NCBI GenBank assembly: GCA_963663165.1
Contig: OY760175.1
Location: forward strand, 4,896,001-4,960,000
Length of the DNA stretch: 64,000 nucleotides
Source of the DNA: an uncultured Desulfospira sp.
GTDB lineage: Bacteria > Desulfobacterota > Desulfobacteria > Desulfobacterales > Desulfobacteraceae
Reading direction: 5' to 3'
Shown here: positions 17,449 through 45,834 of the stretch, piece by piece
How positions within the stretch are numbered: position 1 is the stretch's first letter
Layout of the letters: every line of letters starts with the position of its first letter
The notes under the pieces: generated by a model
Told to the model about the DNA's origin: nothing
Database searches by the model: none
Seen by the model: the letters and a program-made list of their open reading frames with translations, nothing else
Translations under genes and position numbers: made by a program

Positions 17449-17977
17449 GAATAATAAGATAGCCATTTCCGTCTCCATTGATCCTTGTGATACCCTCCTA
17501 TATGCATACAATTATTATTATGTCGATAAGGTCGAGGGCAAAGAAGTGTTACTTTATGAAAGCGCTATTGAATGCAAAGATCACGAATTGTCAATCAGCT
17601 TGCCCGAAAACTTTTTGCTGGGCAACCCTGTATACCTTAAGGTGGTTGTTCGGTCGGAATTTTCAGAGCTTGGCTCCGCGCAAATTGATCTCAGGGAGTG
17701 TGAACTTGCTGGTGAGTGGGTTAACGCCACGCTTTCCTATAACCCCCATGTCCTAGCGGACACAACGAAGCATGAAACACTTGCAAATTTTGAAAAAAGG
17801 TCATAGCCCGGATGGCCACCCAAAATCCCCCACTTATGGCCACCTCAAAATCCCCCACCTGAGCGTTTAAAAAATCAGGCGTAATCGCTGATAATCAGGA
17901 AATTCAGGAAAAACGGCGACAGAACGTTTAAATTCCCATGTATTACCCGATCAATCTAATCATGGGAGTTGGAAAGG

Positions 17978-20620
17978 ATGAACGTTTTGAAACCAGAAAA
18001 ACAGGCAGCAATCAGCACATTACTCAACAAGAATGTAAGCCAGCGAGAAATCAGCAGGAAAACTGGTATTGACCGGAAGACAGTACGCCGATACATACGT
18101 CAAAACGCTCCCGGATCAATCCAAATTCCCCCACCGGAGGCCACATCAAAATCCCCCACCCCGGCCACCGATCAGATTGGAAAGCCCCCACCCCGGCCAC
18201 CGGCTGATTCAGTGGATTCAGGCCCCATACCGTTTCACGCAAGATCCGCCTGTGAGCCTCACCGGAAATGGATTGAAGACCAGGTTCGACTGGGCAGAAA
18301 CGCCATGGCTATCTATCAGGATCTGGTGGAGCAGTTCAGTTTTGAACATAAGTACAACAGCGTTAAACGCTTTGTCCGCAAGTTAAAGCGCAAAGACCCC
18401 AAGCAGTTTGACCGACTGGAGTTTAGGCCTGGAGAAGAAGCCCAGGTGGATTATGGCCAAGGCGCCTTAACCAAGGGGCCGAATGGCAAATACAAACGTC
18501 CCCGGTTATTTGTGATGACCCTGAAATATTCCGGGCGCTCCTTTCGCAAGGTGGTCTGGAAATCCAGTCAAGAAACCTGGGCCAGGCTCCATGAAGAGGC
18601 GTTCCGGTATTTCGGTGGTTGCCCTGAATACGTGGTCTTAGACAATTTAAAAGAGGGTGTTATCAAGCCGGATATCTATGAGCCTGAGTTGAACCCGGTT
18701 TATGCAGCTGTACTGGCTCACTACGGTGTAGTAGCAGACCCGGCCAGGGTACGAGATCCCGACCGCAAGGGCACGGTGGAGAATGCCGTTCAGCATACCC
18801 AGAATACAGCCCTGAAAGGAAAGCAGTTCGACACCATTGAAGCCCAGAATGAATGGCTGATGCACTGGGAAGAAAGATGGGCATCAACCCGGATACACGG
18901 CCGGAAGAAACGGCAGGTGGAGGAGATGTTCCAGGAGGAAAAGCCCCATTTGTCCCTCCTGCCGTTGAAAGGGTTTGAATATTTTCGCCAGGAGACCCGC
19001 ACAGTGTATGATGACGGAACTATCCAGGTAGACTCATGCTATTATTCCGCCTTGCCGGCGCCGTTGCACCAGGAAATCATTGTCCGGATTTATGAAACAC
19101 AGATTGACATCATCAATCCCCGGACCATGGAAAAAATCCGCACCCATATCAAAGGCGACCGGCCCGGAGCGGTTAAGATGGAGGAGGAAGACCGGATCTT
19201 CAATCCATCCCGGCAAACAACCAGCCTTTTGAATAAAGCCGAAAGTATCGGTCCTGCGACGAGACAGCTATGCGAACTGATTTTCAAGGAAAAGGGACGC
19301 CCCGGACAGCGCCGGATGCAGGGCATTGTCAATCTTGCCCGGAAACATGAGGCCGGCAGTATTGAGGCGGCGGCCCAAACAGCCATAGAGAAGGGATTGC
19401 GCAGTTACAAATCCTTTTGCCGGCTGGTTGAACACCAGAAATCATTTACAGATACCAGACCACAAGAGGGTATCAGCCAGGAGCATGAACTGATCCGGCC
19501 GTCAAATGATTACGGTCAGTTTTTCGACACGTATGCTGCAGGTAATCAACCCGTTATCTCAAAACAGGACCTGCCAAAGGTATGGCAAAGTGCCGACTGG
19601 TTGAAGGTGATGGCCGTTTTCGGCCTTGAGCCCCAAAAGAACAAAAAAGACGAAATCTGGATTCAATCCCCTTTTACCGGAGAACAGAACGCCTCTTTGC
19701 ATGTGCATCTGGGGCAGAATGTCTACAAGGACTTCAGCAGCGGCAAAGGCGGTGGAATCCTCAATTTCTGCCAGGATCTGCTCGCCCGCAAAGGGCGGGT
19801 GATGAACTGCTACCAAGTGGCGGAATGGATGATCAGCGAAGGCATTTCAAGCCTGAACAAACCCGTGGCCGTTGAGCCCAAACCAACTCCAGAAAAGAAT
19901 CAGGCCAACCCGCCGGTGAGTATTGATCTGCAACCGTTTCTGGAAATCGTTCATCCGGAACTTGAAAACCGGGGGATTTCCAATAAGGCCTGCAGATACC
20001 TGGGATGCGGATATCTGCCCAAGAGAGCCACAGGCAAAAGTTCTCCATTAAACGGAAGAGTGGTCTTTCAGGTGCGAGGGATCAGTCCGGAACTAACCCC
20101 TGTCATTCTAAGCCATGTCGGCCGTGCATTGACAGACCATCAGGCTGACCTGGATGGCAGATACTGGGGCTTTCCTTTCTCCAAAAAGCTGGAAATCTAC
20201 AACCAGGACAAACTGCTGCTGGACCCAAACGCCAGGGATCAGGTGGAACGATATGGCTTGACCCTTGTGGAGGGCTTTTTTGATGTGGCAGCCCTGGTGT
20301 CCGCTGACTGTTTGAATGCAGGCGCTCTCATGGGAGCACATCTGGCAGTGGAACAGGTTCTCCAACTCAGGTTTCTGGCATCACATATGGATATAAACAA
20401 GGTCAACCTTTTCCTGGACCGGGATGAGGCTGGAAGTAAAGGGACCCGGGCTGCGGCATCACTACTTACGCACCATGGGTTTACTGTAAATGTGTTTGAC
20501 TGGAACCACCGGTTCAGCCGGCCTGGATGTCCACCTGCAGGGATCAAGTCCGATATAAAAGATCCGGCGGACATGTCTGAAACCCAGCTCAAATACTTAA
20601 GAAAACAAGGGATGATTTAA
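17978..20620 (+). CDS. istA: IstA transposase fused to DnaG-like (degenerate Zn-binding + Toprim) module
   Basis: HTH, PGEEAQVDYG, LDNLK, KGTVE; after ~aa 525: SPF..E..S....KDFSSGKGG, LVEGFFD, LDRDEAG, KDPAD. Confidence 0.85.
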   Translation: MNVLKPEKQAAISTLLNKNVSQREISRKTGIDRKTVRRYIRQNAPGSIQIPPPEATSKSPTPATDQIGKPPPRPPADSVDSGPIPFHARSACEPHRKWIEDQVRLGRNAMAIYQDLVEQFSFEHKYNSVKRFVRKLKRKDPKQFDRLEFRPGEEAQVDYGQGALTKGPNGKYKRPRLFVMTLKYSGRSFRKVVWKSSQETWARLHEEAFRYFGGCPEYVVLDNLKEGVIKPDIYEPELNPVYAAVLAHYGVVADPARVRDPDRKGTVENAVQHTQNTALKGKQFDTIEAQNEWLMHWEERWASTRIHGRKKRQVEEMFQEEKPHLSLLPLKGFEYFRQETRTVYDDGTIQVDSCYYSALPAPLHQEIIVRIYETQIDIINPRTMEKIRTHIKGDRPGAVKMEEEDRIFNPSRQTTSLLNKAESIGPATRQLCELIFKEKGRPGQRRMQGIVNLARKHEAGSIEAAAQTAIEKGLRSYKSFCRLVEHQKSFTDTRPQEGISQEHELIRPSNDYGQFFDTYAAGNQPVISKQDLPKVWQSADWLKVMAVFGLEPQKNKKDEIWIQSPFTGEQNASLHVHLGQNVYKDFSSGKGGGILNFCQDLLARKGRVMNCYQVAEWMISEGISSLNKPVAVEPKPTPEKNQANPPVSIDLQPFLEIVHPELENRGISNKACRYLGCGYLPKRATGKSSPLNGRVVFQVRGISPELTPVILSHVGRALTDHQADLDGRYWGFPFSKKLEIYNQDKLLLDPNARDQVERYGLTLVEGFFDVAALVSADCLNAGALMGAHLAVEQVLQLRFLASHMDINKVNLFLDRDEAGSKGTRAAASLLTHHGFTVNVFDWNHRFSRPGCPPAGIKSDIKDPADMSETQLKYLRKQGMI

Positions 20621-20649
20621 GGGATGAAAAAAGAAAAAAAGGAGGTATC

Positions 20650-21429
20650 ATGAGTATGACGACCACGGAACTTGAAAAACACTTAAAAGAACTCAGGCTG
20701 AGCGGTATGCAGGCTACCCTGGAAAGCCGGGCATTACAGGCCAATCAGTCCAATGCAAGCCTTGTCGAAGGGCTGTCATGGCTGGTTCAGGATGAACTGG
20801 ATCATCGTTCTTCAAATCTTAAACAACGCAGATTCAAGGCATCCGGCCTGGATGAACTCCAGACGCTGACGGATTTTGACTGGGGGTTCAATCCAAAACT
20901 TCCTAAAAAGGAAATTTATGAACTGGTGACCGCCAAGTTCATAAAAAATGGAGAGCATGCCCTTTTAATCGGTGCGCCGGGTACTGGAAAGAGCCGGATT
21001 GCCAAAACCATTGCCCACGCATCTGTTCAATTGTTCCAGAAAACCTTGTACCGGGAGGCCCATGTGTTTTTTGAAGACATGTTCGAAGCCGAACAAACCC
21101 ATAATCAGAAAAAGATCTTCAAACTGTTTACACAGGCGGATCTTTTGGTTATTGATGATTTGTTCCTTCGTAAAAGAATGCCCAACGATGCGGCCGATTA
21201 CCTGCTGGATATCATCATCAACCGATATTCAAAAAGGAAGAGTACGGTAATAACGTCAAACAGACCCCTTGAAGACTGGGGCTTGCTGCTCAAAGACAAT
21301 GCCGCATCATCGGCCATACTGGATCGGCTGCTCCACCATGGTCACCTGCTGAAGTTCGAAGGGAAAAGCTACCGTCTCAAGGAAGCCGCTAAACGGCTCT
21401 CTGCGCCACAAAATAAGAACGAGGGATGA
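20650..21429 (+). CDS. istB: IstB AAA+ ATPase
   Basis: GAPGTGKS, LLVIDD, ITSN, AILDRLLHH, GKSYR. Confidence 0.95.
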   Translation: MSMTTTELEKHLKELRLSGMQATLESRALQANQSNASLVEGLSWLVQDELDHRSSNLKQRRFKASGLDELQTLTDFDWGFNPKLPKKEIYELVTAKFIKNGEHALLIGAPGTGKSRIAKTIAHASVQLFQKTLYREAHVFFEDMFEAEQTHNQKKIFKLFTQADLLVIDDLFLRKRMPNDAADYLLDIIINRYSKRKSTVITSNRPLEDWGLLLKDNAASSAILDRLLHHGHLLKFEGKSYRLKEAAKRLSAPQNKNEG

Positions 21430-31526: not shown

Positions 31527-33468
31527 GACAACCTCTCTTCGTAGTATATGATATTTGTGCCAAATAATATCATATACTACGAAGCAATAACAGGAAAAAT
31601 AATCCATTTCGCCCAGAATCTTAGAGTTTTTCGATTCAACGACTAAAACATATACTTTGCAAATTGAAACAAGTTGTATTAATTGAATTAAAAATCAGTT
31701 GGTTGAAAAAATCCAACTGTCATTTGCGGTTATAGGGAAAAGCAGCCGCAAAACTTCAAGAAAGAAGCCATCATCAATATCGACGGCACTATCAGTGAAA
31801 CAACCGGCGAGTGCAAACAGGGTATGGACATCTCTTATAATGGTAAGTGGGGATATGCCCCTCTGATAGTCTCTCTGGAAAAAACAAGGGAGCCTCTTTA
31901 TATAATCAATCGATCCGGCAATGCTCCGTCCCACCTCAACTCTGCGGGTTGGGTGGATAAGTCCCTTGATCTGCTGGAAGGCACTTTTAAAAAATTATAC
32001 GTTCGGGGTGATACTGATTTCAGCCTTACTTCCAATTTTGACAAATGGGATCAACGCTGTACCTTTGTCTTTGGCATGGATGCCAGATCAAACCTGATAA
32101 AACTGGCCGGTGGTCTTTCAGATTCCGAATGGGAGATATTTGAAAAACAGCCGCAAGCCATCAAAACAATCCCCAGAAAACGTCCCGAAAATATCAAACT
32201 TCAAGTGGTCAAAAAACGCAATTTCAAACGTCTTGAGACCGCCTGTGAACATATAGCCGAATTTGAATATAAACCTGGTAAATGTCGGCAACCCTACCGG
32301 ATGATCGTGCTGCGCAAAACAATAAATGAGTATAAAGGCGAACGTCTATTGTTTGACGATATCCGTTACTTTTTTTACATCACAAACGATTGGAAAAAAT
32401 CAGCCAGGCACCTGGTGGATTTTTACCGGAAACGGGCGGATCACGAAAATGACATTGATCAGTTGAAACATGGCGTGCATGCAATGGCTAATCCTTCTGA
32501 TTCCCTAAATGCCAACTGGGCCTATATGGTTGTTGCATCTTTGGCATGGGATCTGAAAGCCTGGTATGGAATGATGATGCCGTATCGAGCTTTAGGTCTC
32601 TCCATCGTCCGTATGGAATTCAAACGCTTTATCCAGACATTTATAAATATCCCTTGCTTGATCATACGTTCCAGCAGGGCCATTAAATATCGAATCATTG
32701 GTTATAACAACAGGCTCACAAGCGTGTTCAAGTTTTTTAACTCTTTGAAGACTGCCTGGGTTACATGATGCCTTTGCTCCGGACAGTTATTGCAAACGGG
32801 CTGCAATGGCGAGTCTAAAACCTGTAGATTTCAAAAGGGAATTTAAGCAATGAACCACAACACAATCGGCAGTATTCCAAAAAACATCAGGACTCGTGCG
32901 TCTGTTTGATGGAAATTGGAGACACAAAATAATAGCTCGGGTCGACAATTGCTTATGAGAAATTCATTTTTTATAACACGCTTGTTTTGGGGCTAAACTA
33001 TAACTTTGATGTAACTACTCACCCCGGTCAAAATCGACACCGGGGATTTCACCTGCCAAAGTGAGAATGGTCACAAAAAATCATGGAAAAATTGAAGATA
33101 ATTTGCAAGATATGTCAGGTTTGAGGCAGAAGTTCCCCTGTTTATCTCGCAAATAATCGTGAAACTCCTGCCTCCCCACCCAATAACAGGGCAGGAGATA
33201 TGCTATCAGAAGTTCTGAAAAACGAAAGTTTTTTTTGGGATCTATACAAAATAGATCTGGCAACAGCCGAACGTTATAGACTTATGTTGCGAGTGGTCAT
33301 AACTCATTGATTTTTATGATAAATTCAAACACCCGCTGTGCAAATCAATATCGACTTTTAAATTCAATGAGTTACAGTGGATTATAAAATTTTTCATAAT
33401 CACTGGCAACATAATTTTTTGTTTTACTACATACCGCTTTAAAGATAGCAAAAGGCTACCTCAATGGA

Positions 33469-34488
33469 TCATAAACTGTCAAGCCAGGCAAGGATTTCAG
33501 CATTATTTTTCCAGTCGATCAGCTCATCAATCTTCTTGTCTTGATTTATTTTCGATTGCATATATTCAATGAGCTTATCCTGGATTTCCCGTTTTTTTGA
33601 CAAGTCCAGCTGCAAATAAGCCATTGTTGATTCAACGCTTTGATGGCCCAGGCGATTTTTGATATCCGATACGGGGGCCCCTGAAGTCACCATATTAACC
33701 GCACAAGAATGTCTGAAGCAATGGGCCGGACTCAGACCTTTCAACCGTTTTTCCGGCAATGCTTTTGTCAGATATCTTCGGCAAATTTTGTTGATACCAT
33801 GCCGGGTCATTCCCCGCCTCCGCTGATTAATGAACAGCCGGTGTGCAAATAATGGGATGGGGGCTACTCTATGATTGGTGATATAGTCTGAGATCAGTGA
33901 TGCGGTTTTGGACCACAGGTTGATCAACCTGTATCGGTTCCCCTTGCCCAGGACCGCAATGGTTTCGTTTTCAGGATCAAAATAATCAAATTCCAGTGTG
34001 GCAATCTCGCTGGCTCTGGCACCGGAGTCGTAAAGCAGATGGAGAATGGTAAAATCTCTCATCCCTTCCTTCTTTTTTAAATCGACGACACTGAAAATTT
34101 TCATTATTTCTTCTGGGTGTAAAAATCCCATCACCTTCTTTTGAGCCCTTTTCTGAGGGATGGTCAAAAGAGCTTCTGCGACTCGTTTTTTGTCCGGATG
34201 CATGAATCGGATCATCTTGGCCAGCGACTTGATCACGGCCAAGCGGTTGTTCCGGGTCTGGACGGTATTTTTTCGGTCTGTTTCCAAATGATTCAGGAAG
34301 CCCAGAACAGCGTCAGGTGTTAAATGGTCAATTTTCAAGGATTTGATTTTGATCGAATGATAATCCGCCAAAAAATGCAGAAACAAAGAAAAAGCCTGCT
34401 GGTAAGTTTTAATGCTTTGTTCGCTGGTCCCTTTTATATGGGGCAGGTATTCATAAAAATACTGATGCAGGCAGGTGGATAATCTCAT
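33469..34488 (-). CDS. tyrosine recombinase, RitC-like
   Basis: TRNNRLA, GARASE, GKG, HCFRHS, LGH, Y. Confidence 0.9.
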   Translation of the reverse strand: MRLSTCLHQYFYEYLPHIKGTSEQSIKTYQQAFSLFLHFLADYHSIKIKSLKIDHLTPDAVLGFLNHLETDRKNTVQTRNNRLAVIKSLAKMIRFMHPDKKRVAEALLTIPQKRAQKKVMGFLHPEEIMKIFSVVDLKKKEGMRDFTILHLLYDSGARASEIATLEFDYFDPENETIAVLGKGNRYRLINLWSKTASLISDYITNHRVAPIPLFAHRLFINQRRRGMTRHGINKICRRYLTKALPEKRLKGLSPAHCFRHSCAVNMVTSGAPVSDIKNRLGHQSVESTMAYLQLDLSKKREIQDKLIEYMQSKINQDKKIDELIDWKNNAEILAWLDSL

Positions 34489-35459
34489 ACATCCTCACTT
34501 CTCAACATCGAAAAATCAAGCATTTGGCGGCGATGCTCTGCATCCAGAACTCTCAGATATTTGGTCGTATACTTGTATTCGCTGTGTCCCATGTAAGCGG
34601 CCAGCACCGGCAACGCATTTTGGGCAGACTTGCCCTGTTGTTTAATTCGTTTCAGTGTATTTACAGCAAAGGAATGACGAAGTGAGTGCCGTGTCGGGTT
34701 GCTGAAATTTGTAGCACCAATAATTTTTTTGTGCTGATCAAGGTTAATGGCCGAAATCGCTTTTTTAAATTTTCGATCCATGAAATGGCGGGGTAACTTT
34801 CCGCCATCTCCTTTGATCAATAATAAAGGATGCACATCGGCAATAAGTAAAAGCCGTCGCACGTTCAAAAAATTGTCGATTTCACAAGAAACGGCCTTGG
34901 GTATTGGGATCAGTCGGTCTTTTTTAAATTTTGTTTTCTCAATATAGATTGTCCTTTCTTCAGACCTGTAGTTCTTTTGCAGCAAATTGAACGTCTCCGA
35001 TATTCTCAAGCCGCACCGGGCCATCAGCAGAAAAGAGATATAACCGCTAAAATCGGTGAGGTAATATTTTTTTGTTTTTCGCATCTGTTTTATGACAGTT
35101 TTCAATAAAAGATCCGTTTCTTTCGGAGAAAAAATAAAAGGGATAATCTGATTTTCCGGCAGCTCAGCAATCTCCTGTATGGGATTTGTCAAAATCAGGT
35201 CTCTGCGGATCAGATATTTGAAAAACATTTGAAACGTTCGAAAAAATGTATTGATGGAACGGTTTTCACAATTGAGGTCTGAACGGAGTCGGATGAAAAA
35301 CAACGGATCAAATGATGTCCAGGTCACATCCCTTTGGGCAACATACCGATCCAGCAACCGAAGGCTGCACAGCAGCATTTTATCTGAATATCCCAATTGA
35401 AGACGGTATTCGATAAAATCCTCTATATATTCGCTAAGAAAGCTTTTAAAGCGTTTCAC
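34485..35459 (-). CDS. tyrosine recombinase, RitB-like
   Basis: PFIFS, GLRISE, TKFKKDR, HSLRHSFAV, LAAYMGH, T..YL. Confidence 0.9.
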   Translation of the reverse strand: MKRFKSFLSEYIEDFIEYRLQLGYSDKMLLCSLRLLDRYVAQRDVTWTSFDPLFFIRLRSDLNCENRSINTFFRTFQMFFKYLIRRDLILTNPIQEIAELPENQIIPFIFSPKETDLLLKTVIKQMRKTKKYYLTDFSGYISFLLMARCGLRISETFNLLQKNYRSEERTIYIEKTKFKKDRLIPIPKAVSCEIDNFLNVRRLLLIADVHPLLLIKGDGGKLPRHFMDRKFKKAISAINLDQHKKIIGATNFSNPTRHSLRHSFAVNTLKRIKQQGKSAQNALPVLAAYMGHSEYKYTTKYLRVLDAEHRRQMLDFSMLRSEDV

Positions 35460-36405
35460 CGAGGATAACCTCCCGCATCAGGTTGATATGGATGCTCAGA
35501 TATTTTTGCGTTGCTCCGATGCTTTTATGGCCCATCATTTCTTTTATCTCATAAATGGAAGCACCGGACTCCAGCAAATTCTGGGCGTAAGAATGCCTCA
35601 GCCAATATGTGTTTGACTCAAGATTGCTATCAGCCATAAATTCTCTTATATGACGGGGGATGTCGCTCCTGCCAACCGGTTTATAAGGCGGCACTAACTG
35701 TAAAAATAAGGTTCGAGATTGGGTTTCTGGTCTCCCGCCGATAATATAAGCGGTGATGGCCTTGATCACATTGTCCGGCACAGGAAGATGAGCAGGGCTG
35801 TAATTTTTTCTCGAACGAATAAAAATCTCTTTTTGCCTGAAAGAGATGTCATCCAGGGTAAGTGAGCTGATTTCTCCGGGCCTCAATCCCAAAAAATATG
35901 CCAGGTGCATAGCCGCATAAATACGGAGATCTTTTGCTGTTGACAAATTCATGAGCTTAAACATTTTTTGCACTTCATGGGGGCGCAAGAATTTCGGTGG
36001 TTTTGACCGAGCAAACTCAGGAGGGCTCACCACCAGCACAGAGATGTCTTTTTTGATATACCCGCCTCGGTAGAGGTGCTTGAGAAACTGCCGAAGATGT
36101 GACCGGTTAGATCTGGCTGCCCCGGCAGAATAATTGGTGTTGTAACGGGCTAAAAATTGATCAACCTGATGAATGGATATTTCATTTAAAAGAATGCCTG
36201 ACGTTTGAAGAAAAAAATGAAAACTCATCAGTATTTGCCTCATTGCGCCGATATTGTTTTCGTTACGAAGCTGGTGTTTGTAATAATTCAGATACCCATG
36301 AAAAATTTCCGGCAACGGAAGGCCGAGTGGCGGCATTATTTCTGCCGGCACTCGACATCGACGATAAGACTGTATATTGAGTTCTGTTCCCAAATCAGAC
36401 GTCAT
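35446..36405 (-). CDS. tyrosine recombinase, RitA-like
   Basis: GLRPGEI, LRHSYA, MGH, TQKY. Confidence 0.88.
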   Translation of the reverse strand: MTSDLGTELNIQSYRRCRVPAEIMPPLGLPLPEIFHGYLNYYKHQLRNENNIGAMRQILMSFHFFLQTSGILLNEISIHQVDQFLARYNTNYSAGAARSNRSHLRQFLKHLYRGGYIKKDISVLVVSPPEFARSKPPKFLRPHEVQKMFKLMNLSTAKDLRIYAAMHLAYFLGLRPGEISSLTLDDISFRQKEIFIRSRKNYSPAHLPVPDNVIKAITAYIIGGRPETQSRTLFLQLVPPYKPVGRSDIPRHIREFMADSNLESNTYWLRHSYAQNLLESGASIYEIKEMMGHKSIGATQKYLSIHINLMREVILGETL

Positions 36406-36703
36406 GATCAGGTGCTCTTGTATTCAAAATAATCTGAAGATATTTGACACTGTCAACAAAACCAATGTGCCGACAGGCCATTACCAGATCTATGGTATTA
36501 AAATTCTTTTCGCATCGAAAACACCTGCTCAGGTTCGTCTTAGGATTAACTGCAGTCTGAAATTCATTGCACAAGGGACACAGAAAACGGAAAACCCCTT
36601 CACTTATTTTGGCTGGAATACCCAGTTCCGTTTCGATCAACACATGAATGGGTATTGAATTTCGTAATCTATAAAGTTCCTTTGAAGAAAATCGTTTGCC
36701 CAT
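36395..36703 (-). CDS. stand-alone CHC2-type (primase-like) zinc finger protein
   Basis: FLCPLC...NLSRCFRC..NFNTIDLV...F..SV..L. Confidence 0.8.
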   Translation of the reverse strand: MGKRFSSKELYRLRNSIPIHVLIETELGIPAKISEGVFRFLCPLCNEFQTAVNPKTNLSRCFRCEKNFNTIDLVMACRHIGFVDSVKYLQIILNTRAPDHDV

Positions 36704-37208
36704 GCTGACACCTCTTCTTTTTGGTTAGTTCCTTCATAATATCTGGTGTCAATTTTACCGTCTCCTGGTCCGTGGCATCAATAATCTCTTGTAACGCATT
36801 TTTGTTAAGGAGGGTGTCAAACCCAATAAAGACAAGGGTCTTGGCCGATATTAAATCTTGTAACGGTATTTGAATTAAATCCATCGAAGATCCTTTACCA
36901 GCAATGGTTTTGGCAGTTTTTATCTCTTGTAACGTATTTTCAGTTAAGGATGGCTTTCCCGGAGGCTTTGTTCGCTTCCAGTAACCAGGATTGCTTTGGC
37001 GCCATTCCTGAACACGGACCACATTCTCAGGCCCTGAAAAATAATCCTGATTCTTTGGCTTATTCAGCCATTTTTGCTGGCTGTGTTTTTTACTGGCAAT
37101 TTTGCATTCGGGTTCGTTACAAAATTTTTGCCGTTTCAAATGACGGGGATCTGGCTTGAATAAATTTTGGCAGTTTTTACACCTGCGCTGTCGGATTTGT
37201 TTTTTCAT
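36669..37208 (-). CDS. Zn-ribbon hypothetical protein
   Basis: CKNC..LF.PDPR...QKFC...C, RVQEWR..NPGYW. Confidence 0.7.
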   Translation of the reverse strand: MKKQIRQRRCKNCQNLFKPDPRHLKRQKFCNEPECKIASKKHSQQKWLNKPKNQDYFSGPENVVRVQEWRQSNPGYWKRTKPPGKPSLTENTLQEIKTAKTIAGKGSSMDLIQIPLQDLISAKTLVFIGFDTLLNKNALQEIIDATDQETVKLTPDIMKELTKKKRCQHGQTIFFKGTL

Positions 37209-37971
37209 AGACCTGATACCTCCTTAGATCTATGATCGGATGGATGGTGGCGGGGTAGTATTTTTTCAAAATATGGCGGGGTATAGCGGGGTCCAGCTGG
37301 GTCGGGCGGGGTAGAACACGCAACAAAAAAAACTCGCTACATAAATAGACAGATGAAGTGCCCCCACTGCCAGGGACCGTTGTATTATGCCAATTATCCG
37401 CGCAAACCCAGGGGGGAGCCTGAAGGGTTGTCTGAAGAATGTTTTTTACAATTCAGTTTATGTTGCGGAAGGGAAGGCTGTCGACGTCGTTTGATCCCGC
37501 CAACCTGCCGTTTCCTTGGTAAAAACATTTACTGGTATGCGGCCATTCTGACGATTGTGTCCGACTGGCAGAACCAATCTGTAGGTATCACGATGTCCAG
37601 GTTTGCTGAAACAATCGGTATCTCCCGCAACACCCTTAGCCGCTGGGTCAGCTTATTCAAAGAAATATTTCCAACAAGCTCTCAATGGAAGAAAATCCGG
37701 GGCCGAGTACCTGCAAGCGTAAAAAATGATCGTCTTCCAGCAAGTTTGGTCAACTTCTATCTGCATCAACAGGCGTCCATCAAAAAAACGTTGATCTCCT
37801 GTTTGTCATTCTTGTCTCAAGGCAGTGAAATATCACAAAAAATAAGGGCCGGGTAATCTCACGCAGAAGATGGGCGTGGCCTTGGGCGCTCAACTGTTCT
37901 ATCAAAGGGGCCGGGATTTTTATCAGCATTTCGCTGAAAATTTTAACTCAAAATTGAAAGGACCCCGGCCT

Positions 37972-39417
37972 ATGAACAGTAAAAACCAAAGTCCGGTTGA
38001 TAACTGGGCTTTGTTTCGCTTCTCAGTCGTTGGCGGTTTGCTGGCAAATCCGCCGGCCAAAGGTGAGCTGCGCAAGGAACTGGAAAAGCTTTCCTATCAG
38101 ATTTACACCCATCCCATCACGAACGAATCAACGGTATTTCATTTTTCAACTATTGAAAGCTGGTATTACAAGGCAAAAAATGCCCAGGACCCCATTATTG
38201 CTTTAGGGCGGAAAGTTCGTTCTGACTATGGCGGTTCAATTGTATTCACACCTGAACTGATCCGGATGCTGGGCAGACAATACCGGACTTATCCGAACTG
38301 GAGCTACAAACTGCACGCAGATAATTTCGCAGCAGAACTCCAGGAAAAGGAGGCTTCAGTATCGGTACCATCCTATGCCAGTGTCCGGCGGCGGATGATC
38401 GAAAGGGGGTGGACCAGGAAGCCCTCAGCAAAGAAAAAACAGACAGCGGGCATGAAAATTGCCGCAAAGCGGTTCGAAAGCCATGAAATCCGAGGATACG
38501 AAGCAGAATATGTTCACAGCCTGTGGCATCTGGATTTTCATGAAGGCAGTCTGCGGGTGGTGGATAACAACGGTAACTGGTATACGCCCAAAGCCTTATG
38601 TATTCTTGACGACCATTCCCGCCTGTGCTGCCACATCCAATGGTATTCAGGAGAAACCACCCAGGATTTGATTCATGGATTGACCCAGGCATTTTTCAAA
38701 AGGGGGCTTCCCAGGGCACTGATGACGGACAACGGATCTGCCATGACCTCCCATGAGTTTTGCAACGGTCTTAAAAAAACAGGGATACTTCATGAAACGA
38801 CACTGCCCTACAGCCCTTATCAAAACGGTAAGCAGGAAGCCTTTTGGGGAACCCTTGAAGGCAGATTGATGGCCATGCTGACCCGGGTGGACCCTCTGAC
38901 ACTGGAATATCTCAATCACAGCAGTCAGGCCTGGGTCGAGATGGAATATAACAAAACCAGGCATAGTGACATCGGCACATCTCCTGTTCAACGCATGCTT
39001 GAAGGCAAAGATGTTTCCCGGCCGGCACCGGATGAAGAGCAACTGAGGTTCGCCTTTACAGTCTGCGAATCCAGAAATCAGCGAAAATCTGACGGTACCG
39101 TGTCCATCAACGGGGTAAGATTTGAGATCCCTTCCCGGTTTCACCATATCCCTCGGTTACATGTCTGCTTTGCCAATTGGGATAAATCCATGGCCTGGCT
39201 CATGGACCAGAGAACCGGCAAACAGATTGCGCAGATCTACCCCCAGGACAAAATCAAAAATGCTTCAGGAAAACGAAAGATCAAGTCGAGACCTGAGCAT
39301 ACCATTCTACCGGATGAAACATTGAAAGAATCCGAGCCTGCATTATTAAGAAAACTGATGGCCGAGTATGCCCAAAGCGGCATGCCTCCAGCCTATCTTC
39401 CCAAAGGAGAATCATGA
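37972..39417 (+). CDS. DDE integrase/transposase (rve, Mu-like C-terminus)
   Basis: LWHLDFH, LDDHSR, MTDNGSA, QNGKQE, YN...HS. Confidence 0.9.
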   Translation: MNSKNQSPVDNWALFRFSVVGGLLANPPAKGELRKELEKLSYQIYTHPITNESTVFHFSTIESWYYKAKNAQDPIIALGRKVRSDYGGSIVFTPELIRMLGRQYRTYPNWSYKLHADNFAAELQEKEASVSVPSYASVRRRMIERGWTRKPSAKKKQTAGMKIAAKRFESHEIRGYEAEYVHSLWHLDFHEGSLRVVDNNGNWYTPKALCILDDHSRLCCHIQWYSGETTQDLIHGLTQAFFKRGLPRALMTDNGSAMTSHEFCNGLKKTGILHETTLPYSPYQNGKQEAFWGTLEGRLMAMLTRVDPLTLEYLNHSSQAWVEMEYNKTRHSDIGTSPVQRMLEGKDVSRPAPDEEQLRFAFTVCESRNQRKSDGTVSINGVRFEIPSRFHHIPRLHVCFANWDKSMAWLMDQRTGKQIAQIYPQDKIKNASGKRKIKSRPEHTILPDETLKESEPALLRKLMAEYAQSGMPPAYLPKGES

Positions 39418-40241
39418 ACAACAAACAGCTTCTGGCTTATTACGGCCTTAAATGGAACCCTTTTTTTCCTAATATCCCCGTGGAAGCCTTATGGCATCCG
39501 CCATTGATGAACAGTTTTATTTTTCGTCTTGAGAATATGACCCTGAACGGGGGCTTTGCTTTGATCAGCGGGGACCCCGGCCTTGGCAAATCCAAGGCGT
39601 TGCAGATGATTGCCCAAAAGTTCGGTAAACTTGACGAGGTAGTTGTCGGGGTAATGGAACGTCCCCAAAGCAGTGTCGGAGACTTTTACCGGGAAATGGG
39701 AGTTTTGTTTGGTGTCAATTTGAGCCCTGCCAACCGGTACGGCGGGTTCAAGGATCTTCGGGAGCGCTGGAAAAGTCATGTAAAAACCACCTTGTTCCGG
39801 CCCATCCTGCTCATAGATGAGGCCCAGGAGATGCTGACCGGATGCTTAAATGAACTGCGTTTGTTGAACAGCGCGGACTTTGACTCCCAAAACCTGTTGA
39901 CCACCGTGATTTGCGGCGATGACCGGCTCCCGGAACGGTTCAGATCAAGATCCCTGGTATCGCTGGGAAGCCGGATGCAGTTCCGGCTGACGCTGCTTCC
40001 CTATGTCCGGGATGACCTGCTGGATTACATGGATCACAGCCTGAACCAGGCCGGCGCCCCGCACTTAATGACGAAAACTCTGATCAGGACCCTTGCAGAC
40101 CATTGCGCCGGCAACCTGCGGGTTCTTAACAATATGGCCGCAGACCTGCTGACTGCGGGGATTGAAAAAGAACTCAATCAATTGGACGAAAAGCTTTTTA
40201 TGGAAGTCTATTCCAGACAGCCGCCCAATAAAAAATCATAG
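39414..40241 (+). CDS. ExeA-like AAA ATPase (transposition helper)
   Basis: GLKWNPF, GDPGLGKS, LLIDEAQ, GNLR; ATGA-coupled to the transposase. Confidence 0.9.
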   Translation: MNNKQLLAYYGLKWNPFFPNIPVEALWHPPLMNSFIFRLENMTLNGGFALISGDPGLGKSKALQMIAQKFGKLDEVVVGVMERPQSSVGDFYREMGVLFGVNLSPANRYGGFKDLRERWKSHVKTTLFRPILLIDEAQEMLTGCLNELRLLNSADFDSQNLLTTVICGDDRLPERFRSRSLVSLGSRMQFRLTLLPYVRDDLLDYMDHSLNQAGAPHLMTKTLIRTLADHCAGNLRVLNNMAADLLTAGIEKELNQLDEKLFMEVYSRQPPNKKS

Positions 40242-40250
40242 GAGAACAAT

Positions 40251-40433
40251 ATGGGTATTTATGATGATCCGGACATGAAACTGGAAGAAATCACACAGGA
40301 ATTGGAACATTTTATCCTGGATATGGTCCTTGCCGGACTTGAAAGCTTGAATATGGAATATCGGGCCTTCAGGCGATTCCAGAAACAAAGGCTCACGGAA
40401 AAGAACCGTCATAAAGAACACGAGCCGTTTTGA
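40251..40433 (+). CDS. small hypothetical protein
   Basis: AGGAG RBS, operon position. Confidence 0.5.
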   Translation: MGIYDDPDMKLEEITQELEHFILDMVLAGLESLNMEYRAFRRFQKQRLTEKNRHKEHEPF

Positions 40434-41121
40434 ACGTACGCCCGGACTCCAAAGGTCCGGGCCTGCCTCAATGGAAAAAATACTTTGGAAAATCGGCAAT
40501 TATTTTAAGCACCGCTTCAGCCTGGCAGTTCTTGATGAAATTAAGGGCCGGTGGCCCGTTCTCCCCTCTTGTAAAAACATCCCTTATCTTAAAGCTGAAA
40601 ATGCCGGAGGAAGGCACATCCTGATCAGACCTGATCCTGTTATTCAGCCTTATTATTTTCTTGCCGACGATTTAAACATTGACCTGCTTATCCGGCATCA
40701 TCAATCCATATCAAACCGCTTTAAACCAGGCAGGATGGTTATAGAAACATCTCCCGGCAATTATCAAATTTGGATTCACAGTGACCGTCCGTTAAGCCTT
40801 CCCGAAAAAAAGTATTGGTTGGAAAACATGCACAGTGATCCCGGCGCCGACCCGAAAAACAGGTGGGGCAGATGCCCCGGGTTCAGGAACAGAAAAGCAA
40901 AACACAGAACGCCTTCAGGACAATACCCTTTGGCAAAGCTATTATGGGTGGACTGGAAATGCCAGGCTATTGTCCCTGAAATAGAATTATCCTCCCAACC
41001 TCAAGAAGTCTTTTCCCATCAACCCCGGGGGGGAGTGTGCCATAACGGTAATATTTCCCGCTCCCTCTATGATAAGGGTGACGAATCTGCCACTGATTTT
41101 GCATATGCTCTGGCCCTCTAT

Positions 41122-43022
41122 CTTACTTTCCGCACCCATAAATAAAAAATGAGTGTGAATTTATTATTCTATAAATTCAGGTAGATAGAGTTAACTGAAT
41201 TCCATTCAGTAAATAAATTTTGTTCAGACTAGATTTTTTTCCTTCTAGGTGATATCGATTTCCCAGTAAAGCAAATCAACAGACACCTTGGAGGTTAAAT
41301 GGAAATCAAAGACTTCAGCAGTCTGACAATAACCGATGTGCAGTTCCTACCCATAGTCAAAGAATATGCCCGCCGGATAAATCTGGTAGAAACAATCAAC
41401 CAGATGGTGAATACCCAGATGGATCTTCAGCCGGGCCCTGTTGTTCTCGGCATGGTTCTGGACACCCTGTCCGGGAGATCTCCTCTTTACCGGTTAAAAA
41501 ATTTTCTCGACGAAAAAGACATCGAACTGCTGCTTGGTAAGGCAATATCTTTGGAACAGTTTACAGACCATAATATTGGCCGTGCATTGGACAAAATTTT
41601 TGAAACAGGAACCCAAAAGATATTCGGCCAATTGAGCCAGAACGCTGTCAATGGTTTCCAAATCAAGCCGACCGGAGCCCACTATGACACAACATCTGTC
41701 AGTGTTTACGGTGATTACGCCATGACAGATGAGCCGTTTGAAATCACTTACGGCCACAGCAAAGATAAGCGTCCGGATCTAAAGCAGTTCCTTGTTGAAA
41801 TGCTGTGTGTTGACAGAAACATTCCCTTATTTGGAGGGACTCGGGATGGCAATGCATCCGACAAGACCTTGAACAATGAAGTGCTGACTACGATCTCCAA
41901 ACACATGGCCAACCATGGACTTAAAGAAAATGCGTTCGTGTATGTTGCAGATTCTGCCTTTGTAACGGAAGATAACCTTGGGAAAGCTGGAAAAACAAAA
42001 TTTGTCAGTCGGCTGCCGGCCACTTATAATGAATGCAGCCGCGCTATCAAAGAAGCGGTTCAGGCCGATAATTGGGTTGATATCGGTGTCCTTGCTGAAA
42101 CAGAGGATACACAGAAACGACCGGCAGCACACTACAAAGCCTTTGAGACCACCGTGACCTTGTATGGGACCACTTATCGGGCGGTGGTCGTACATTCCAG
42201 CGCTCACGATAAGCGCCGACACAAAAAAATCGATCGTCAATTAGGCAAGAACAAAAAAGAGCTTGAACAGCAGGTCCAGAAACTACTCACAGAACCGTAT
42301 TACTGCAACGATGATGCCCAGGCTGCGGTTGAAAAAATATCCCGGTTGCCGAAAAAATCGGATCTTTTCACCGTATCGGCAACCATTGATAAGGCGCCCA
42401 AATATTCGAGGGGCCGCCCGAAAAAGGGAGAGACGCGCGTTCCGGATAGATTTGAATATCGCATAACCCTTTTCGTTGATGAGGATGAAGAAAAGGTCCA
42501 ATTTCTTCGGGAAGAAGCTGGATGTTTTGTACTTCTTTCCAACTTAACTTCTCATCAGGAAGAATCTGAATGGTCTGCTAAAGATCTTCTAAAATTGTAT
42601 AAGAACCAGAGCGGCATTGAACAAAACTTCGGCTTCCTAAAAGATCCCGTTATCATCAACAGCGTTTTTCTGAAAAAAAACTCAAGGATTGAAGTCCTCG
42701 GGATGATTTTGCTGATTTCATTGCTGATATGGCGCCTTATTGAAAGGGCTATGCGTTTGTATATCAAAGATAATCAGACAACAATGACAGGTTGGGTAAG
42801 AAGAAGGACCAAACGGCCCACTTCATTCATGATGTCAACCAAGTTCCATACGGTTCTTGTGGTTAAAAGCGGAAACCAAAGACAGCTTGCCAAACCCTTG
42901 AAATCTGTTCATCTGGAATATCTCAAAGCACTTGATGTCAAGCCGGAGGTTTTCATTACACCTTGACCTCTATAACCCTTAAAATTACTCACATCTTATC
43001 GGAGTGGGGTGCGGAAAGTAAG
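41122..43022 (+). mobile_element. IS1634-family element (1901 bp)
   Basis: IRs CTTACTTTCCGCACCC; 6-bp TSD CTCTAT. Confidence 0.92.
41299..42966 (+). CDS. IS1634 transposase
   Basis: HYDTTS, YGHSKDKRPDLKQ, GNASD, VADSA, YKNQSGIEQNFGFLK. Confidence 0.93.
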   Translation: MEIKDFSSLTITDVQFLPIVKEYARRINLVETINQMVNTQMDLQPGPVVLGMVLDTLSGRSPLYRLKNFLDEKDIELLLGKAISLEQFTDHNIGRALDKIFETGTQKIFGQLSQNAVNGFQIKPTGAHYDTTSVSVYGDYAMTDEPFEITYGHSKDKRPDLKQFLVEMLCVDRNIPLFGGTRDGNASDKTLNNEVLTTISKHMANHGLKENAFVYVADSAFVTEDNLGKAGKTKFVSRLPATYNECSRAIKEAVQADNWVDIGVLAETEDTQKRPAAHYKAFETTVTLYGTTYRAVVVHSSAHDKRRHKKIDRQLGKNKKELEQQVQKLLTEPYYCNDDAQAAVEKISRLPKKSDLFTVSATIDKAPKYSRGRPKKGETRVPDRFEYRITLFVDEDEEKVQFLREEAGCFVLLSNLTSHQEESEWSAKDLLKLYKNQSGIEQNFGFLKDPVIINSVFLKKNSRIEVLGMILLISLLIWRLIERAMRLYIKDNQTTMTGWVRRRTKRPTSFMMSTKFHTVLVVKSGNQRQLAKPLKSVHLEYLKALDVKPEVFITP

Positions 43023-45834
43023 CTCTATAGAAGAGGTTTCTCACGAATGGAAATTTACAATCGCATTATCAATGAAAGGCAGGATTGGATTAATCATGCG
43101 GGTGAACGAAAAAAAACACAGTATCTGATCAGGACATTACAGAAAGCTGAAAAAATTATCAGTTAAAATCGGGCTCTCTTGGCCTCCGGGAAAGCCCTTA
43201 TTTACCATGAAACGTTGTCCATGAATTATCGTGATTGCTCTCACAAAGCAAGCTGAATGGCAACAAGAGGATTCACGCCTTTGTTTGCCATGGTTTGCAG
43301 GTAGCTTGAAATTCGACAATAAGCATGAGCATATTGCTGACATCGAAAACAACCTGATATTTTCTGTTTTACCTTTGCCATCCGAAGATCGTTTATGACA
43401 AGTTTCCTGTAAAAGCTTTTTCATATTAGCAGCCCACCTGTACTGATTGGATTCAACAATAAATGTCAGTTCCCTCAATAGATGGGAACCACAAAGTCCA
43501 TGTCCACAATGATCGTACGACAGGTATGATGCCCAGCAATCGTGGATTATTACCCCGCCATAGCGGGGAATAATATTCAAATCGACTATCGCCTCCTTGC
43601 CTCGCTTTCGGTGAAGTAGCTTCAAGGTGGTGCCTCCGGAGGAATACACATGTATCCAGTGATTTTTTCGATCCACCCGAAAGGATGTCTCGTCAACATG
43701 AATTGATGGGGCCTGAAGAATGTCTTCTATCGATTTGACCTCCCACCTTTCAAGTGCTTGATAAAGTCGCCAGACAAACTTTAGAAGGGTTGCTTCTGAA
43801 ATTACCACACCGATCATTGCAGAAATCTGCTTTTGAACTCGGTTGAGTGCAACCATTTGGCTAAGGAAGATAGATAGTATCAATTCCACAACAAGGAGCA
43901 TGCTGTTCATCAGAGCCCGCATCTCAGGAGATACTTTGCCCTCAGCACAAAGATTTTCAAAATCCTTTTTTAGACGGGCTATTTCTTCCCGAACACTATT
44001 TTTATCTACCGTTGCCATGTCAGCATTATAACACGGGTTTTTGGCGGCTCGAGATTTGCTCTATAGCGGATTTTCTATGTATTCGGCATCATCTGTCATG
44101 ATTTTACGGTAAATTTCTGGATAAATAAGCGCCAGCATGCTTTAACAAAGGATTTGGTGACCATTTAAAAAATTTTAAAATTGACCTCAAAAAACCTGTC
44201 AAGTCTTTTTTTAAATTTTTACATTTTTTTATGGGGTGAGTAGTTACACTTTGATTTGATTTCCGTTGATAGTTCTTCGACTGCAGGCGTAAATCAGCTC
44301 TATTTTAACTACAATCCAGAGATTGATCCTTATACCTCATTAACTTCTATTATATCGGCGACTTCTACAAACAACTTGATTACTTGTCAAACTAACCCCA
44401 AAACAAGTGTGAAATAAGTAATAAAAATGAGAAAAAAATCTCGAAACGCCTATCAATAAAGAGTATAATGAGTTTGGCAAAACGAACTATACCAAATTGA
44501 AAGGGCGTTTCGAGTGAATAAGAATATCATCAAAAAATTGGCAAAACGCAAGAAAAAAATAAGCAAAAAACTGAACAAAAGAGATTGGACTGAGCAGCCA
44601 ACTCCCATGCTAAAGGCATCCAATATCCAGTATGAGATCGACGGTCGCCTTCAGGGAATATCACATGGAGGCATTGGCCTGATCCATATGTTGGCCAAAA
44701 AGACCGGCCTTTTGAAAGAAATCGATAAAGAACTTGAGCTGCTCAAGCGCCATTTGCCATATCATGAATCTGATCATGTCGCCAATATGGCATACAATAT
44801 TCTTGCAGGCGGAACCTGTCTTCAGGACATTGAATTGCAAAGAAACAATGATGCCTGGCTTAATGCTCTGGGCGCAAAAATGATCCCTGATCCGACAACG
44901 GCAGGGGATTTTTTGCGCCGGTTTTCCCAGGAAAATATCATTACCCTGATGGATGTGAAAAATACCATACGGAAAAAAATATGGGAAAAGCAGCCTCAAA
45001 ATTTCAAAGAATCAGCCATCATCAATATTGACGGAACTATCAGTGAGACAAGCGGCAAGTGCAAACAGGGTATGGACATCTCCTACAATGGTAAGTGGGG
45101 GTATGCCCCGCTGGTTGTTTCTCTGGAGAGAACAAGGGAACCTCTTTATGTCATCAACCGCTCGGGCAATGCCCCGTCCCACCTTGACTCTGCCCGGTGG
45201 GTGGATAAGGCTCTTGATCTGACGGAAGGCACTTTTAAAAAATTATACGTTCGGGGAGATACGGATTTCAGCCTTACCACGCACTTTGACAAATGGGATC
45301 AACGTTGTTCCTTTATTTTTGGCATGGATGCCAGATCAAATCTAACAAAACGTGCAAATGCTCTTCCTGAAACCGACTGGGTCAGGCTTGAAAAACTGTC
45401 TGCGAAAATTAAAACTCAGCCCCGGAAACGTCCTGAGAATATCAAACTTCAAGTGGTGAAAAAGCGCAAATTCAAACGCATAGAGACTGCGTATGAACAT
45501 ATAGCCGAGTTTGAATACAAACCGGGAAAATGTCAAAAACCATACAGAATGATCGTTTTGCGTAAAACAATAAACGAGTTCAAGGGAGAATTACTACTGT
45601 TCGATGATATCCGCTACTTTTTTTACTATAACCGCAAATGACAGTTGGATTTTTTCAACCAACTGATTTTTAATTCAATTAATACAACTTGTTTCAATTT
45701 GCAAAGTATATGTTTTAGTCGTTGAATCGAAAAACTCTAAGATTCTGGGCGAAATGGATTATTTTTCCTGTTATTGCTTCGTAGTATATGATATTATTTG
45801 GCACAAATATCATATACTACGAAGAGAGGTTGTC

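What the first reader, a model, noticed from the sequence alone, without database searches (positions are those of the whole stretch)
33061..43244. Compact transposon encoding DDE transposase, ExeA-like ATPase and a RepB'-type primase
Seen: after removing RIT and IS1634, a ~4.2-kb five-gene operon (Zn/HTH, DDE, AAA, 60-aa ORF, ~263-aa primase) bounded by GTGAGA..TCAC..TCATGG IRs and a 3-bp TSD. Known: RepB' primases prime at ssi hairpins of RSF1010-type plasmids. Inference: a transposon supplying its own priming for replicative transposition or circle replication. With the IS21-Toprim fusion, this is a second independent primase capture by a DDE+AAA element in one island.
Basis: partly seen in the sequence, partly recalled or inferred. 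Interest (0 to 1): 0.76.

Follow-up and report, generated by a model that had tools for sequence, protein, structure and literature searches.

The report
Transposon with primase and priming site
This is a real, recently active jumping gene that carries its own DNA primase and, hidden inside the primase gene, a plasmid-type site where such an enzyme starts copying single-stranded DNA, which suggests that the element helps to copy itself when it moves.

Summary
Confirmed, with corrected ends. The window holds one of 11 copies of a 4,206-bp Tn6049-family transposon (Zn/HTH, DDE, ExeA-like AAA, 60-aa ORF, RepB' primase). This copy is interrupted by a RIT and an IS1634. The ends are TGAGA…TCTCA and the duplication here is 5 bp (3–6 bp across copies), not 3 bp. 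The primase lies inside the ends, keeps the RSF1010 RepB' catalytic residues and is under purifying selection. The main new result: the primase gene's linker codons (41010–41040) hold one RSF1010-type single-strand initiation (ssi) site. A profile trained on primase genes alone ranks the two oriV sites first in 2 of 2 IncQ plasmids. Synonymous conservation peaks at the site, and a gene-less 373-bp MITE with family ends keeps it. In relatives the same slot holds a DnaG-like primase, a RepA-like helicase with or without a CHC2 finger, or no replication gene, and primase-less members still reach 12–13 copies. So the primase is a functional-looking but replaceable accessory. Most likely it primes the second strand of the displaced top strand during copy-out transposition; this is inferred, and no circle was seen. 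I found no paper describing it.

The parts
33057..33061 (.). left target-site duplication, 5 bp (CAAAG)
   Evidence: repeated at 43244-43248
33062..33088 (+). left end (TGAGA...), imperfect inverted repeat of the family
33282..37350 (-). nested RIT element (three tyrosine recombinases 33469-36405, CHC2 finger 36395-36703, 179-aa ORF 36669-37208); 6-bp core duplicated at 33276-33281 and 37345-37350; separates the left end from the first gene
   Evidence: 4 copies in the genome
37353..37856 (+). 167-aa Cys-rich/HTH protein, core gene of the family, homologue of the first Tn6049 gene
   Evidence: 36% identity over 120 aa
37859..37874 (+). conserved box resembling the subterminal part of the ends, upstream of the transposase gene; role unknown
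   Evidence: (seen in 11 of 11 aligned relatives)
37972..39417 (+). 481-aa DDE transposase (rve; D188, D253, E289), 47% identical to the Tn6049 transposase
   Evidence: triad in 38 of 38
39414..40241 (+). 275-aa ExeA/GspA-like AAA ATPase, 50% identical to the Tn6049 ATPase
40251..40433 (+). 60-aa acidic ORF, no Pfam family; homologues in primase-carrying and some primase-less relatives
40471..41121 (+). RepB'-type primase, codons 1-217 (catalytic domain, linker, start of helix bundle)
41010..41040 (+). RSF1010-type ssi-like site inside the primase linker codons; would prime synthesis from near the right end towards the left end on the top strand
41122..43022 (+). nested IS1634 (transposase 41299-42966) with a 6-bp duplication; breaks the primase gene of this copy
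43023..43166 (+). 3' part of the primase gene (helix bundle)
43217..43243 (-). right end (...TCTCA)
43244..43248 (.). right target-site duplication, 5 bp
33010..44248 (-). IS66-type element into whose transposase gene the transposon inserted (16-bp inverted repeats)
   Evidence: uninterrupted site in 5 other places

Best explanation
A Tn6049-family DDE+AAA transposon that has captured a self-contained priming cassette: a RepB' primase with its own ssi site inside the gene. Shown by sequence: the element moves as a 4,206-bp unit, the primase looks intact and selected, and the site is of the ssiA/ssiB type, single, on the top strand, 326 bp inside the right end. Inferred: the transposase joins the two ends on the top strand (copy-out), replication from the donor flank displaces that strand, and the primase primes it at the ssi to make the double-stranded circle, which transposase and ATPase then insert. 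The cassette would spare the element from waiting for host priming. It is an accessory: relatives fill the slot with a DnaG-like primase, a RepA-like helicase, another structured motif or nothing.
For: Primase: only PDB matches are RSF1010 RepB'; D77/D78/D134/R145/D238/R285 align with D66/D67/D123/R134/D204/R252; dN/dS 0.09-0.18 in 4 of 5 pairs (one saturated) against 0.07-0.17 for the DDE. Site: present in 21 of 23 primase genes, in a different reading frame in one; synonymous identity 0.93 against a median of 0.55, the top of 252 windows; the blind scan ranks two opposite-strand sites first in 2 of 2 IncQ plasmids (24.2/22.0 against next 10.8; 26.9/20.0 against 9.1), and the top hit matches every ssiA position given in PMC8567376 and PMC13037366. 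Cis need: a 373-bp gene-less MITE with family ends, 3 copies with 5-bp duplications, keeps the site in the same orientation; a 78%-identical relative keeps it; two other non-coding mini-elements with other end types keep it. Slot: DnaG-like primase in 2, AAA_25 helicase in 26 of 54 segments (18 confirmed by Pfam; only PDB match RSF1010 RepA). Copy-out rather than cointegrate: 11 of 11 copies and 3 of 3 MITEs have matched duplications of variable length; the transposase is IS481/IS3-like; the cassette also occurs in IS21-type elements, a family listed as circle-forming in bioRxiv 2023.06.07.543989.
Against: No right-left junction in the contigs of 4 runs (contigs drop rare forms) or in 235 loci plus the genome. 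The site's hairpin is weak: -3.3 kcal/mol, with 183 of 200 shuffles folding as well, against about -8.5 for the IncQ sites. 13 of 54 segments have no replication gene; a primase-less subclade is nested in the RepB clade and reached 13 ends in one genome; Tn6049 has 12 copies without a primase (PMC2864759). The D238 equivalent is Asn in 6 of 23 genes and D281 is not kept. Three helicase-type copies in one genome have cyclically swapped duplications, which fits cointegrate-type movement, later recombination or mis-assembly. No activity was measured.
Confidence: 0.5

Rival explanations
1. Same primase and site, but acting in Mu/Shapiro-type replicative transposition: synthesis from the left end displaces the top strand, which the primase then primes near the right end.
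For: DDE plus AAA is the Mu/Tn7-like layout; the site's place and direction fit equally; helicases fill the same slot; swapped duplications in three copies of a helicase-type relative.
Against: No resolvase gene; 14 of 14 insertions in this genome and 11 of 12 in another have matched duplications; the length varies from 3 to 7 bp, whereas Mu, Tn3 and Tn7 give a fixed 5 bp (recalled).
Confidence: 0.2
2. The cassette acts after conjugation: it converts the single strand of a carrier plasmid or ICE in the recipient and so helps the element arrive in new hosts, with no part in the transposition reaction.
For: The closest plasmid homologue (44%) lies in a Dot/Icm-type transfer operon; other homologues lie beside ssb, ardC or parA genes; the family is spread over several phyla.
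Against: All 11 copies and 3 MITEs here are on the single 6.7-Mb contig; a MITE would gain little by keeping the site; the site keeps a fixed place 282-374 bp inside the right end.
Confidence: 0.12
3. Passenger or selfish cassette: primase and site travel together but do nothing for the transposon, or the site is only a binding site that controls primase expression.
For: Repeated loss and replacement; primase-less members thrive; weak hairpin; broken primase genes in one relative genome.
Against: Purifying selection equal to the transposase; retention of the bare site in MITEs; the slot was filled several times by unrelated replication proteins.
Confidence: 0.12
4. The excised circle replicates as a mini-plasmid, as TnGBS-type elements are recalled to do.
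For: Family members carry RepB'- and RepA-like proteins, two of the three IncQ replication proteins.
Against: One ssi only, whereas RSF1010 needs two on opposite strands plus RepA and RepC (PMC8567376); no element examined has both primase and helicase; the element is fully accounted for by its five genes.
Confidence: 0.06

Closest known systems
Tn6049 of Cupriavidus metallidurans CH34 (also on Pseudomonas aeruginosa plasmid pHS87a)
   Same: Same gene order (Cys-rich/HTH, DDE, GspA/ExeA-like ATPase, small ORF); 36%, 47% and 50% identity; its right end fits the family profile (20.2) and it has a 5-bp duplication on pMOL28, 4 bp on pHS87a (PMC4739549); multi-copy; falls inside the family tree.
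   Different: 3.5 kb, no primase, no ssi (score 4.9); left end does not fit the profile (-7.6); small ORF not detectably homologous. In the passages I saw, no mechanism is given.
RepB' primase and ssiA/ssiB of IncQ plasmid RSF1010
   Same: Catalytic and helix-bundle domains and key residues; site with pyrimidine run, hairpin, G run and GTG.
   Different: One site rather than two, inside the primase gene rather than in oriV; weaker hairpin; no RepA or RepC in the element; about 27-29% identity.
IS21 family (IstA + IstB) and other copy-out/paste-in elements (IS3, IS30, IS256)
   Same: TG..CA ends, DDE plus AAA helper, variable duplication; the same primase cassette sits in IS21-type elements.
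   Different: The ATPase is AAA_22/ExeA-like, not IstB; all IS21 and IS481 model scores are below cut-off; known members rely on host priming (recalled).
IEE PrimPol-helicase acting on copy-out IS (bioRxiv 2023.06.07.543989)
   Same: An AEP primase tied to circle-forming IS transposition.
   Different: IEE is encoded outside the IS and promotes excision through microhomologies; it is a different AEP family, with no cognate site in the IS.

Membership tests
Tn6049-like transposons | DDE transposase followed by GspA/ExeA-like ATPase, homologous over full length | tested here: met
   47% over 461 aa and 50% over 267 aa
Tn6049-like transposons | upstream Cys-rich/HTH gene and same gene order | tested here: met
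Tn6049-like transposons | TG..CA imperfect ends of the family type and short duplication | tested here: inconclusive
   Tn6049 right end scores 20.2, left end -7.6 on the family profile; duplication 4-5 bp there, 3-6 bp here
Tn6049 itself | 3.5 kb, no primase | tested here: not met
   4,206 bp with primase; a relative, not a copy
RepB' family AEP primase | catalytic domain plus helix bundle | tested here: met
   PF16793 and PF22448 above cut-off; profile match to 3H20 E 1.9e-27; Foldseek top hit 3H20, E 9.5e-9, TM 0.36 on a pLDDT-68 model
RepB' family AEP primase | D77, D78, D134, R145, D238, R285 | tested here: met
   D66, D67, D123, R134, D204, R252; D281 not kept, W50 is Tyr
RepB' family AEP primase | site-specific DNA primer synthesis | not testable with these tools
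   needs an in vitro assay
RSF1010-type ssi | pyrimidine-rich 5' hexamer, hairpin, GTG start triplet 3' of it | tested here: met
   reciprocal profile test on 2 IncQ plasmids; layout
RSF1010-type ssi | stable hairpin over nt 7-27 | tested here: inconclusive
   weak in this element (z +1.3); ssiA-like fold predicted for 5 of the 12 other sites folded
IncQ-type replicon | two opposed ssi, RepA helicase and RepC initiator | tested here: not met
   one site; five genes only
IS21 family | IstA and IstB models above cut-off | tested here: not met
   NF033546 37 bits against cut-off 160; no IstB match
IS481 family | single-gene IS with transposase above cut-off | tested here: not met
   NF033577 105 bits against cut-off 224; five genes
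copy-out/paste-in elements | circle with abutted ends | tested here: inconclusive
   none in contigs of 4 runs or in 235 loci plus the genome; raw reads were not available

The most novel reading that the evidence does not exclude
Several unrelated DDE transposon families (Tn6049-like, a second ExeA-type family, IS21-type) share an exchangeable 3' slot that supplies the replication step of transposition itself. In this element it is a primase plus its own single-strand initiation site, and MITEs keep the bare site to borrow the primase in trans. These would be IS-sized elements that prime their own transposition intermediate instead of hiring the host primosome.
Probability: 0.6. Interest if true: 0.88.

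Novelty: new variant of a known kind. Interest (0 to 1): 0.78.

Why it matters
How the replicative step of DDE transposition is primed is still described as poorly explored (bioRxiv 2026.05.30.728999, Introduction), and the known answers use host machinery. Here a defined enzyme and a 30-nt site lie on a 4.2-kb element with a natural 373-bp mini version. That makes the question directly testable: which strand goes single-stranded, which end attacks first, and whether priming limits transposition. It would also give a reason for primase, helicase and CHC2-finger genes in many IS-sized elements of these bacteria, and a possible aid to broad host range.

Tried and rejected
The RIT as an integral part: rejected, it is absent from 10 of 11 copies. 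A second, opposite-strand ssi: none. Circle junctions: none; only contigs were offered, and no abutted ends were found in 235 loci plus the genome. No RNA holder listed. Orientation bias: 10 of 11 copies lie on the + strand, but against the replichores inferred from GC skew the split is 6 to 5, so no bias. A single-sequence fold failed (pLDDT 40). A blastn of the site against plasmids gave two short chance hits. Rfam gave no real match in 10 loci. A RepB homologue was not found in 5 of 5 genomes with primase-less elements nor in 2 of 4 genomes with ssi-bearing mini-elements, with only a fragment in a third (three of these four assemblies have 110-950 contigs), so trans supply is not shown there. 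The careful DDE tree did not finish; the quick tree is used. The RSF1010 record and the 2009 structure paper were not held. Ten paper searches found no report of a primase with an ssi inside a DDE transposon; subscription journals and ISfinder were not searched.
Full report
1. The element. The window lies at C1:4896001-4960000 of a 6.74-Mb single-contig genome. Three window segments (33062-33281, 37345-41121, 43023-43243) are contiguous at 10 other places, giving 11 copies. Nine measure 4,206 bp, one 4,217 bp across the contig start, and the window copy 10,182 bp. Among the nine, five are identical, three differ by 112 nt and one by 38 nt, so spread is recent. The ends are TGAGA..TCTCA. The window copy sits in an IS66-type transposase gene, has a 4.07-kb RIT between its left end and first gene, and an IS1634 in its primase gene. 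It is probably inactive itself.

2. Proteins. The DDE protein has rve domains and an invariant D188/D253/E289 triad in 38 of 38 relatives. The ATPase is AAA_22. The intact primase (262 aa) has both RepB Pfam domains and matches only RSF1010 RepB' in the PDB, by sequence and by fold (modest model, pLDDT 68). The residues that PMC8567376 shows to matter (parts 1-4 of 5 read; supplements not seen) align with D66, D67, D123, R134, D204 and R252. D204 is Asn in 6 of 23 genes. Its dN/dS is 0.09-0.18 in the 4 of 5 pairs that were not saturated, like the transposase.

3. Family. The best plasmid matches to the transposase are in Cupriavidus metallidurans CH34 and on pHS87a. The ends, size and ATPase identify these as Tn6049 (passages of PMC2864759 and PMC4739549). 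An earlier scan note on another copy gave me this lead; I tested it here. A genome scan kept 78 loci (best 80 of 130 stretches) and a metagenome scan 8, from Desulfobacterota, Planctomycetota, Acidobacteriota, Spirochaetota and others. L051 shares flanks with a copy in this genome and is not independent. After dropping loci without an ATPase gene or a mapped right end, and identical segments, 54 distinct 3' segments remained: 12 close RepB, 1 divergent RepB, 2 CHC2+Toprim primases, 26 AAA_25 helicases (5 with a CHC2 finger gene) and 13 with no replication gene. Pfam confirmed 18 of the helicases; the other 8 were assigned by eye. The one helicase searched matches only RSF1010 RepA in the PDB. 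Copies from one genome are not independent. On a quick tree of 39 transposases (duplicates and fragments left out) the close-RepB elements form one clade (100) that contains a primase-less subclade (98 with its RepB sister); the two DnaG-like cases lie apart; Tn6049 groups with helicase carriers (93). The slot has been refilled several times.

4. The initiation site. Aligning 23 primase genes showed a DNA motif in the linker codons of 21, in a shifted frame in one. Among 14 genes, synonymous identity reaches 0.93 there against a median of 0.55 over 252 windows; the ten best windows all overlap it. I built a two-block profile from 16 unique motifs (4 were mis-registered in the first block) and scanned sequences not used in training. 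In IncQ plasmid NZ_CP116476.1 the two best hits are on opposite strands between aph(6) and mobC, scoring 24.2 and 22.0 against a next best of 10.8. The top one has the CCGAAGG loop (passages of PMC13037366) and C7, G27, C28, C30 and GTG at 31-33 as in PMC8567376. A second IncQ plasmid gave 26.9 and 20.0 against 9.1. The element has one site, at 3881 of 4206; its next best score is 7.4. In the genome the 11 copies score 34.9, three further sites 29.1, and the rest 23.4 or less. The 12 close-RepB segments score 32-37, partly by construction; the 42 others score at most 15.2. The hairpin is weak in this element.

5. MITEs. The three further sites lie in a 373-bp element without genes, with family ends and 5-bp duplications. 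The site is about 105 bp inside the end that matches the right end, in the same orientation, with no primase sequence around it. A relative in G160, 78% identical over 290 nt, keeps the site, but its right end is missing; a second relative there is only a 169-nt left piece. A strict pattern found the site in 14 of 301 genomes of the order, against 3 hits for the reversed control. Of 18 sites outside this genome, 10 are in primase linkers, 2 lie upstream of a primase beside a DUF5906/VapE-type gene, 3 are in non-coding mini-elements, 1 is non-coding and unresolved, and 2 look like chance. The mini-elements are a 235-bp unit with IS21-like ends (label recalled) in two genomes with different flanks and a 4-copy unit in G059 whose ends I did not define. 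On a quick primase tree the transposon-borne primases of three element types form one clade (86), next to replicon and plasmid homologues from the same order. This fits one capture followed by shuttling; the direction was not tested.

6. Mechanism. By PMC8567376, RepB' primes at the GTG and synthesis runs back through the hairpin. Here that means from near the right end leftwards on the top strand. One site suits a single-stranded circle, where one start is enough. In copy-out/paste-in a single-strand bridge is replicated into a double-stranded circle (passages of PMC7780238 and bioRxiv 2023.06.07.543989). That IS911 needs host DnaG for this step, and that IS21 makes duplications of variable length, I recall; search did not find a source. 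Matched and variable duplications favour copy-out. Against it, no junction was seen, and 21 of 51 elements in other genomes have no exact duplication. Many of these are short contigs where repeats may be collapsed, and three form a swapped cycle in one genome. I give 0.5 to copy-out priming, 0.2 to priming in cointegrate-type transposition, 0.12 to a role after conjugation, 0.12 to passenger and 0.06 to mini-replicon.

7. The IstA-like protein at 17969-20620 ends in a Toprim domain and is followed by IstB; a second, interrupted copy exists. It is an independent primase capture.

8. Novelty. The core is a member of the Tn6049 kind. In ten searches I found no report of a RepB' primase or an ssi in such an element. 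The RepB' passages of PMC5862659 mention plasmid and relaxase-fused forms only. The primase passages of PMC8649781 concern defence genes. Of bioRxiv 2026.05.30.728999 I read the abstract and Introduction; of PMC13192273 one passage; PMC3942029 I saw only in a listing. The original Tn6049 paper and ISfinder were not available. Verdict: a new variant of a known kind, with a testable new mechanism; interest 0.78.

Noticed in passing
L056:3329-3524, L057:9447-9643, L066, L073, L080, L085, L121, L122, L104; G000 C1:5657286-5657479: A conserved, covarying ~200-nt structured motif (14 of 27 predicted pairs with two-sided changes) fills the same slot in 8 distinct primase-less members. It has no Rfam match, is found in 23 of 121 genomes of the order, and also lies behind the ATPase of other DDE+AAA families and behind IS110 transposases. 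It may be a host-primed single-strand origin or an RNA; untested.
   Followed up: partly
G000 C1:2726987-2727359, 5266572-5266944, 4409221-4409593: 373-bp MITE of this family, three copies, keeping the ssi-like site.
   Followed up: yes
window 17969-21429: IS21-type IstA fused to a DnaG-like C-terminal part with Toprim domain, followed by IstB; second, interrupted copy at C1:5549206.
   Followed up: partly
window 33282-37350: RIT element with two extra genes (CHC2 finger, 179-aa ORF), 4 copies; CHC2 finger genes 66-74% identical occur at 12 more places in the genome, and the two examined lie in other multi-gene elements.
   Followed up: partly
window 37859-37874: Box resembling the subterminal part of the ends, conserved upstream of the transposase gene in 11 of 11 relatives; possibly a regulatory binding site.
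   Followed up: no
L091, L092, L095: Three copies of a helicase-type member in one genome have cyclically swapped 5-bp duplications: recombination between copies, cointegrate-type movement or mis-assembly.
   Followed up: partly
L012, L048, L154, L158, L168, L145: The primase with its internal site also sits in IS21+ParB-like elements, in a second ExeA-type family and beside an integrase gene.
   Followed up: partly
L152, L153: Primase with the site upstream on the opposite strand, short direct repeats and a DUF5906/VapE-type gene: looks like a small replicon, a possible source of the cassette.
   Followed up: partly
L139:6695-8143: RepB-domain protein (482 aa) inside a Dot/Icm-type transfer operon of a Desulfosarcina ovata plasmid; its linker has a degenerate form of the site.
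   Followed up: no
G000 C1:6437232-6443585: Many copies of a regularly spaced repeat, probably a CRISPR array, score 18.1 on the ssi profile; taken as chance.
   Followed up: no
L149 (G234), L133: Internally deleted members that still keep the primase region and the site.
   Followed up: no
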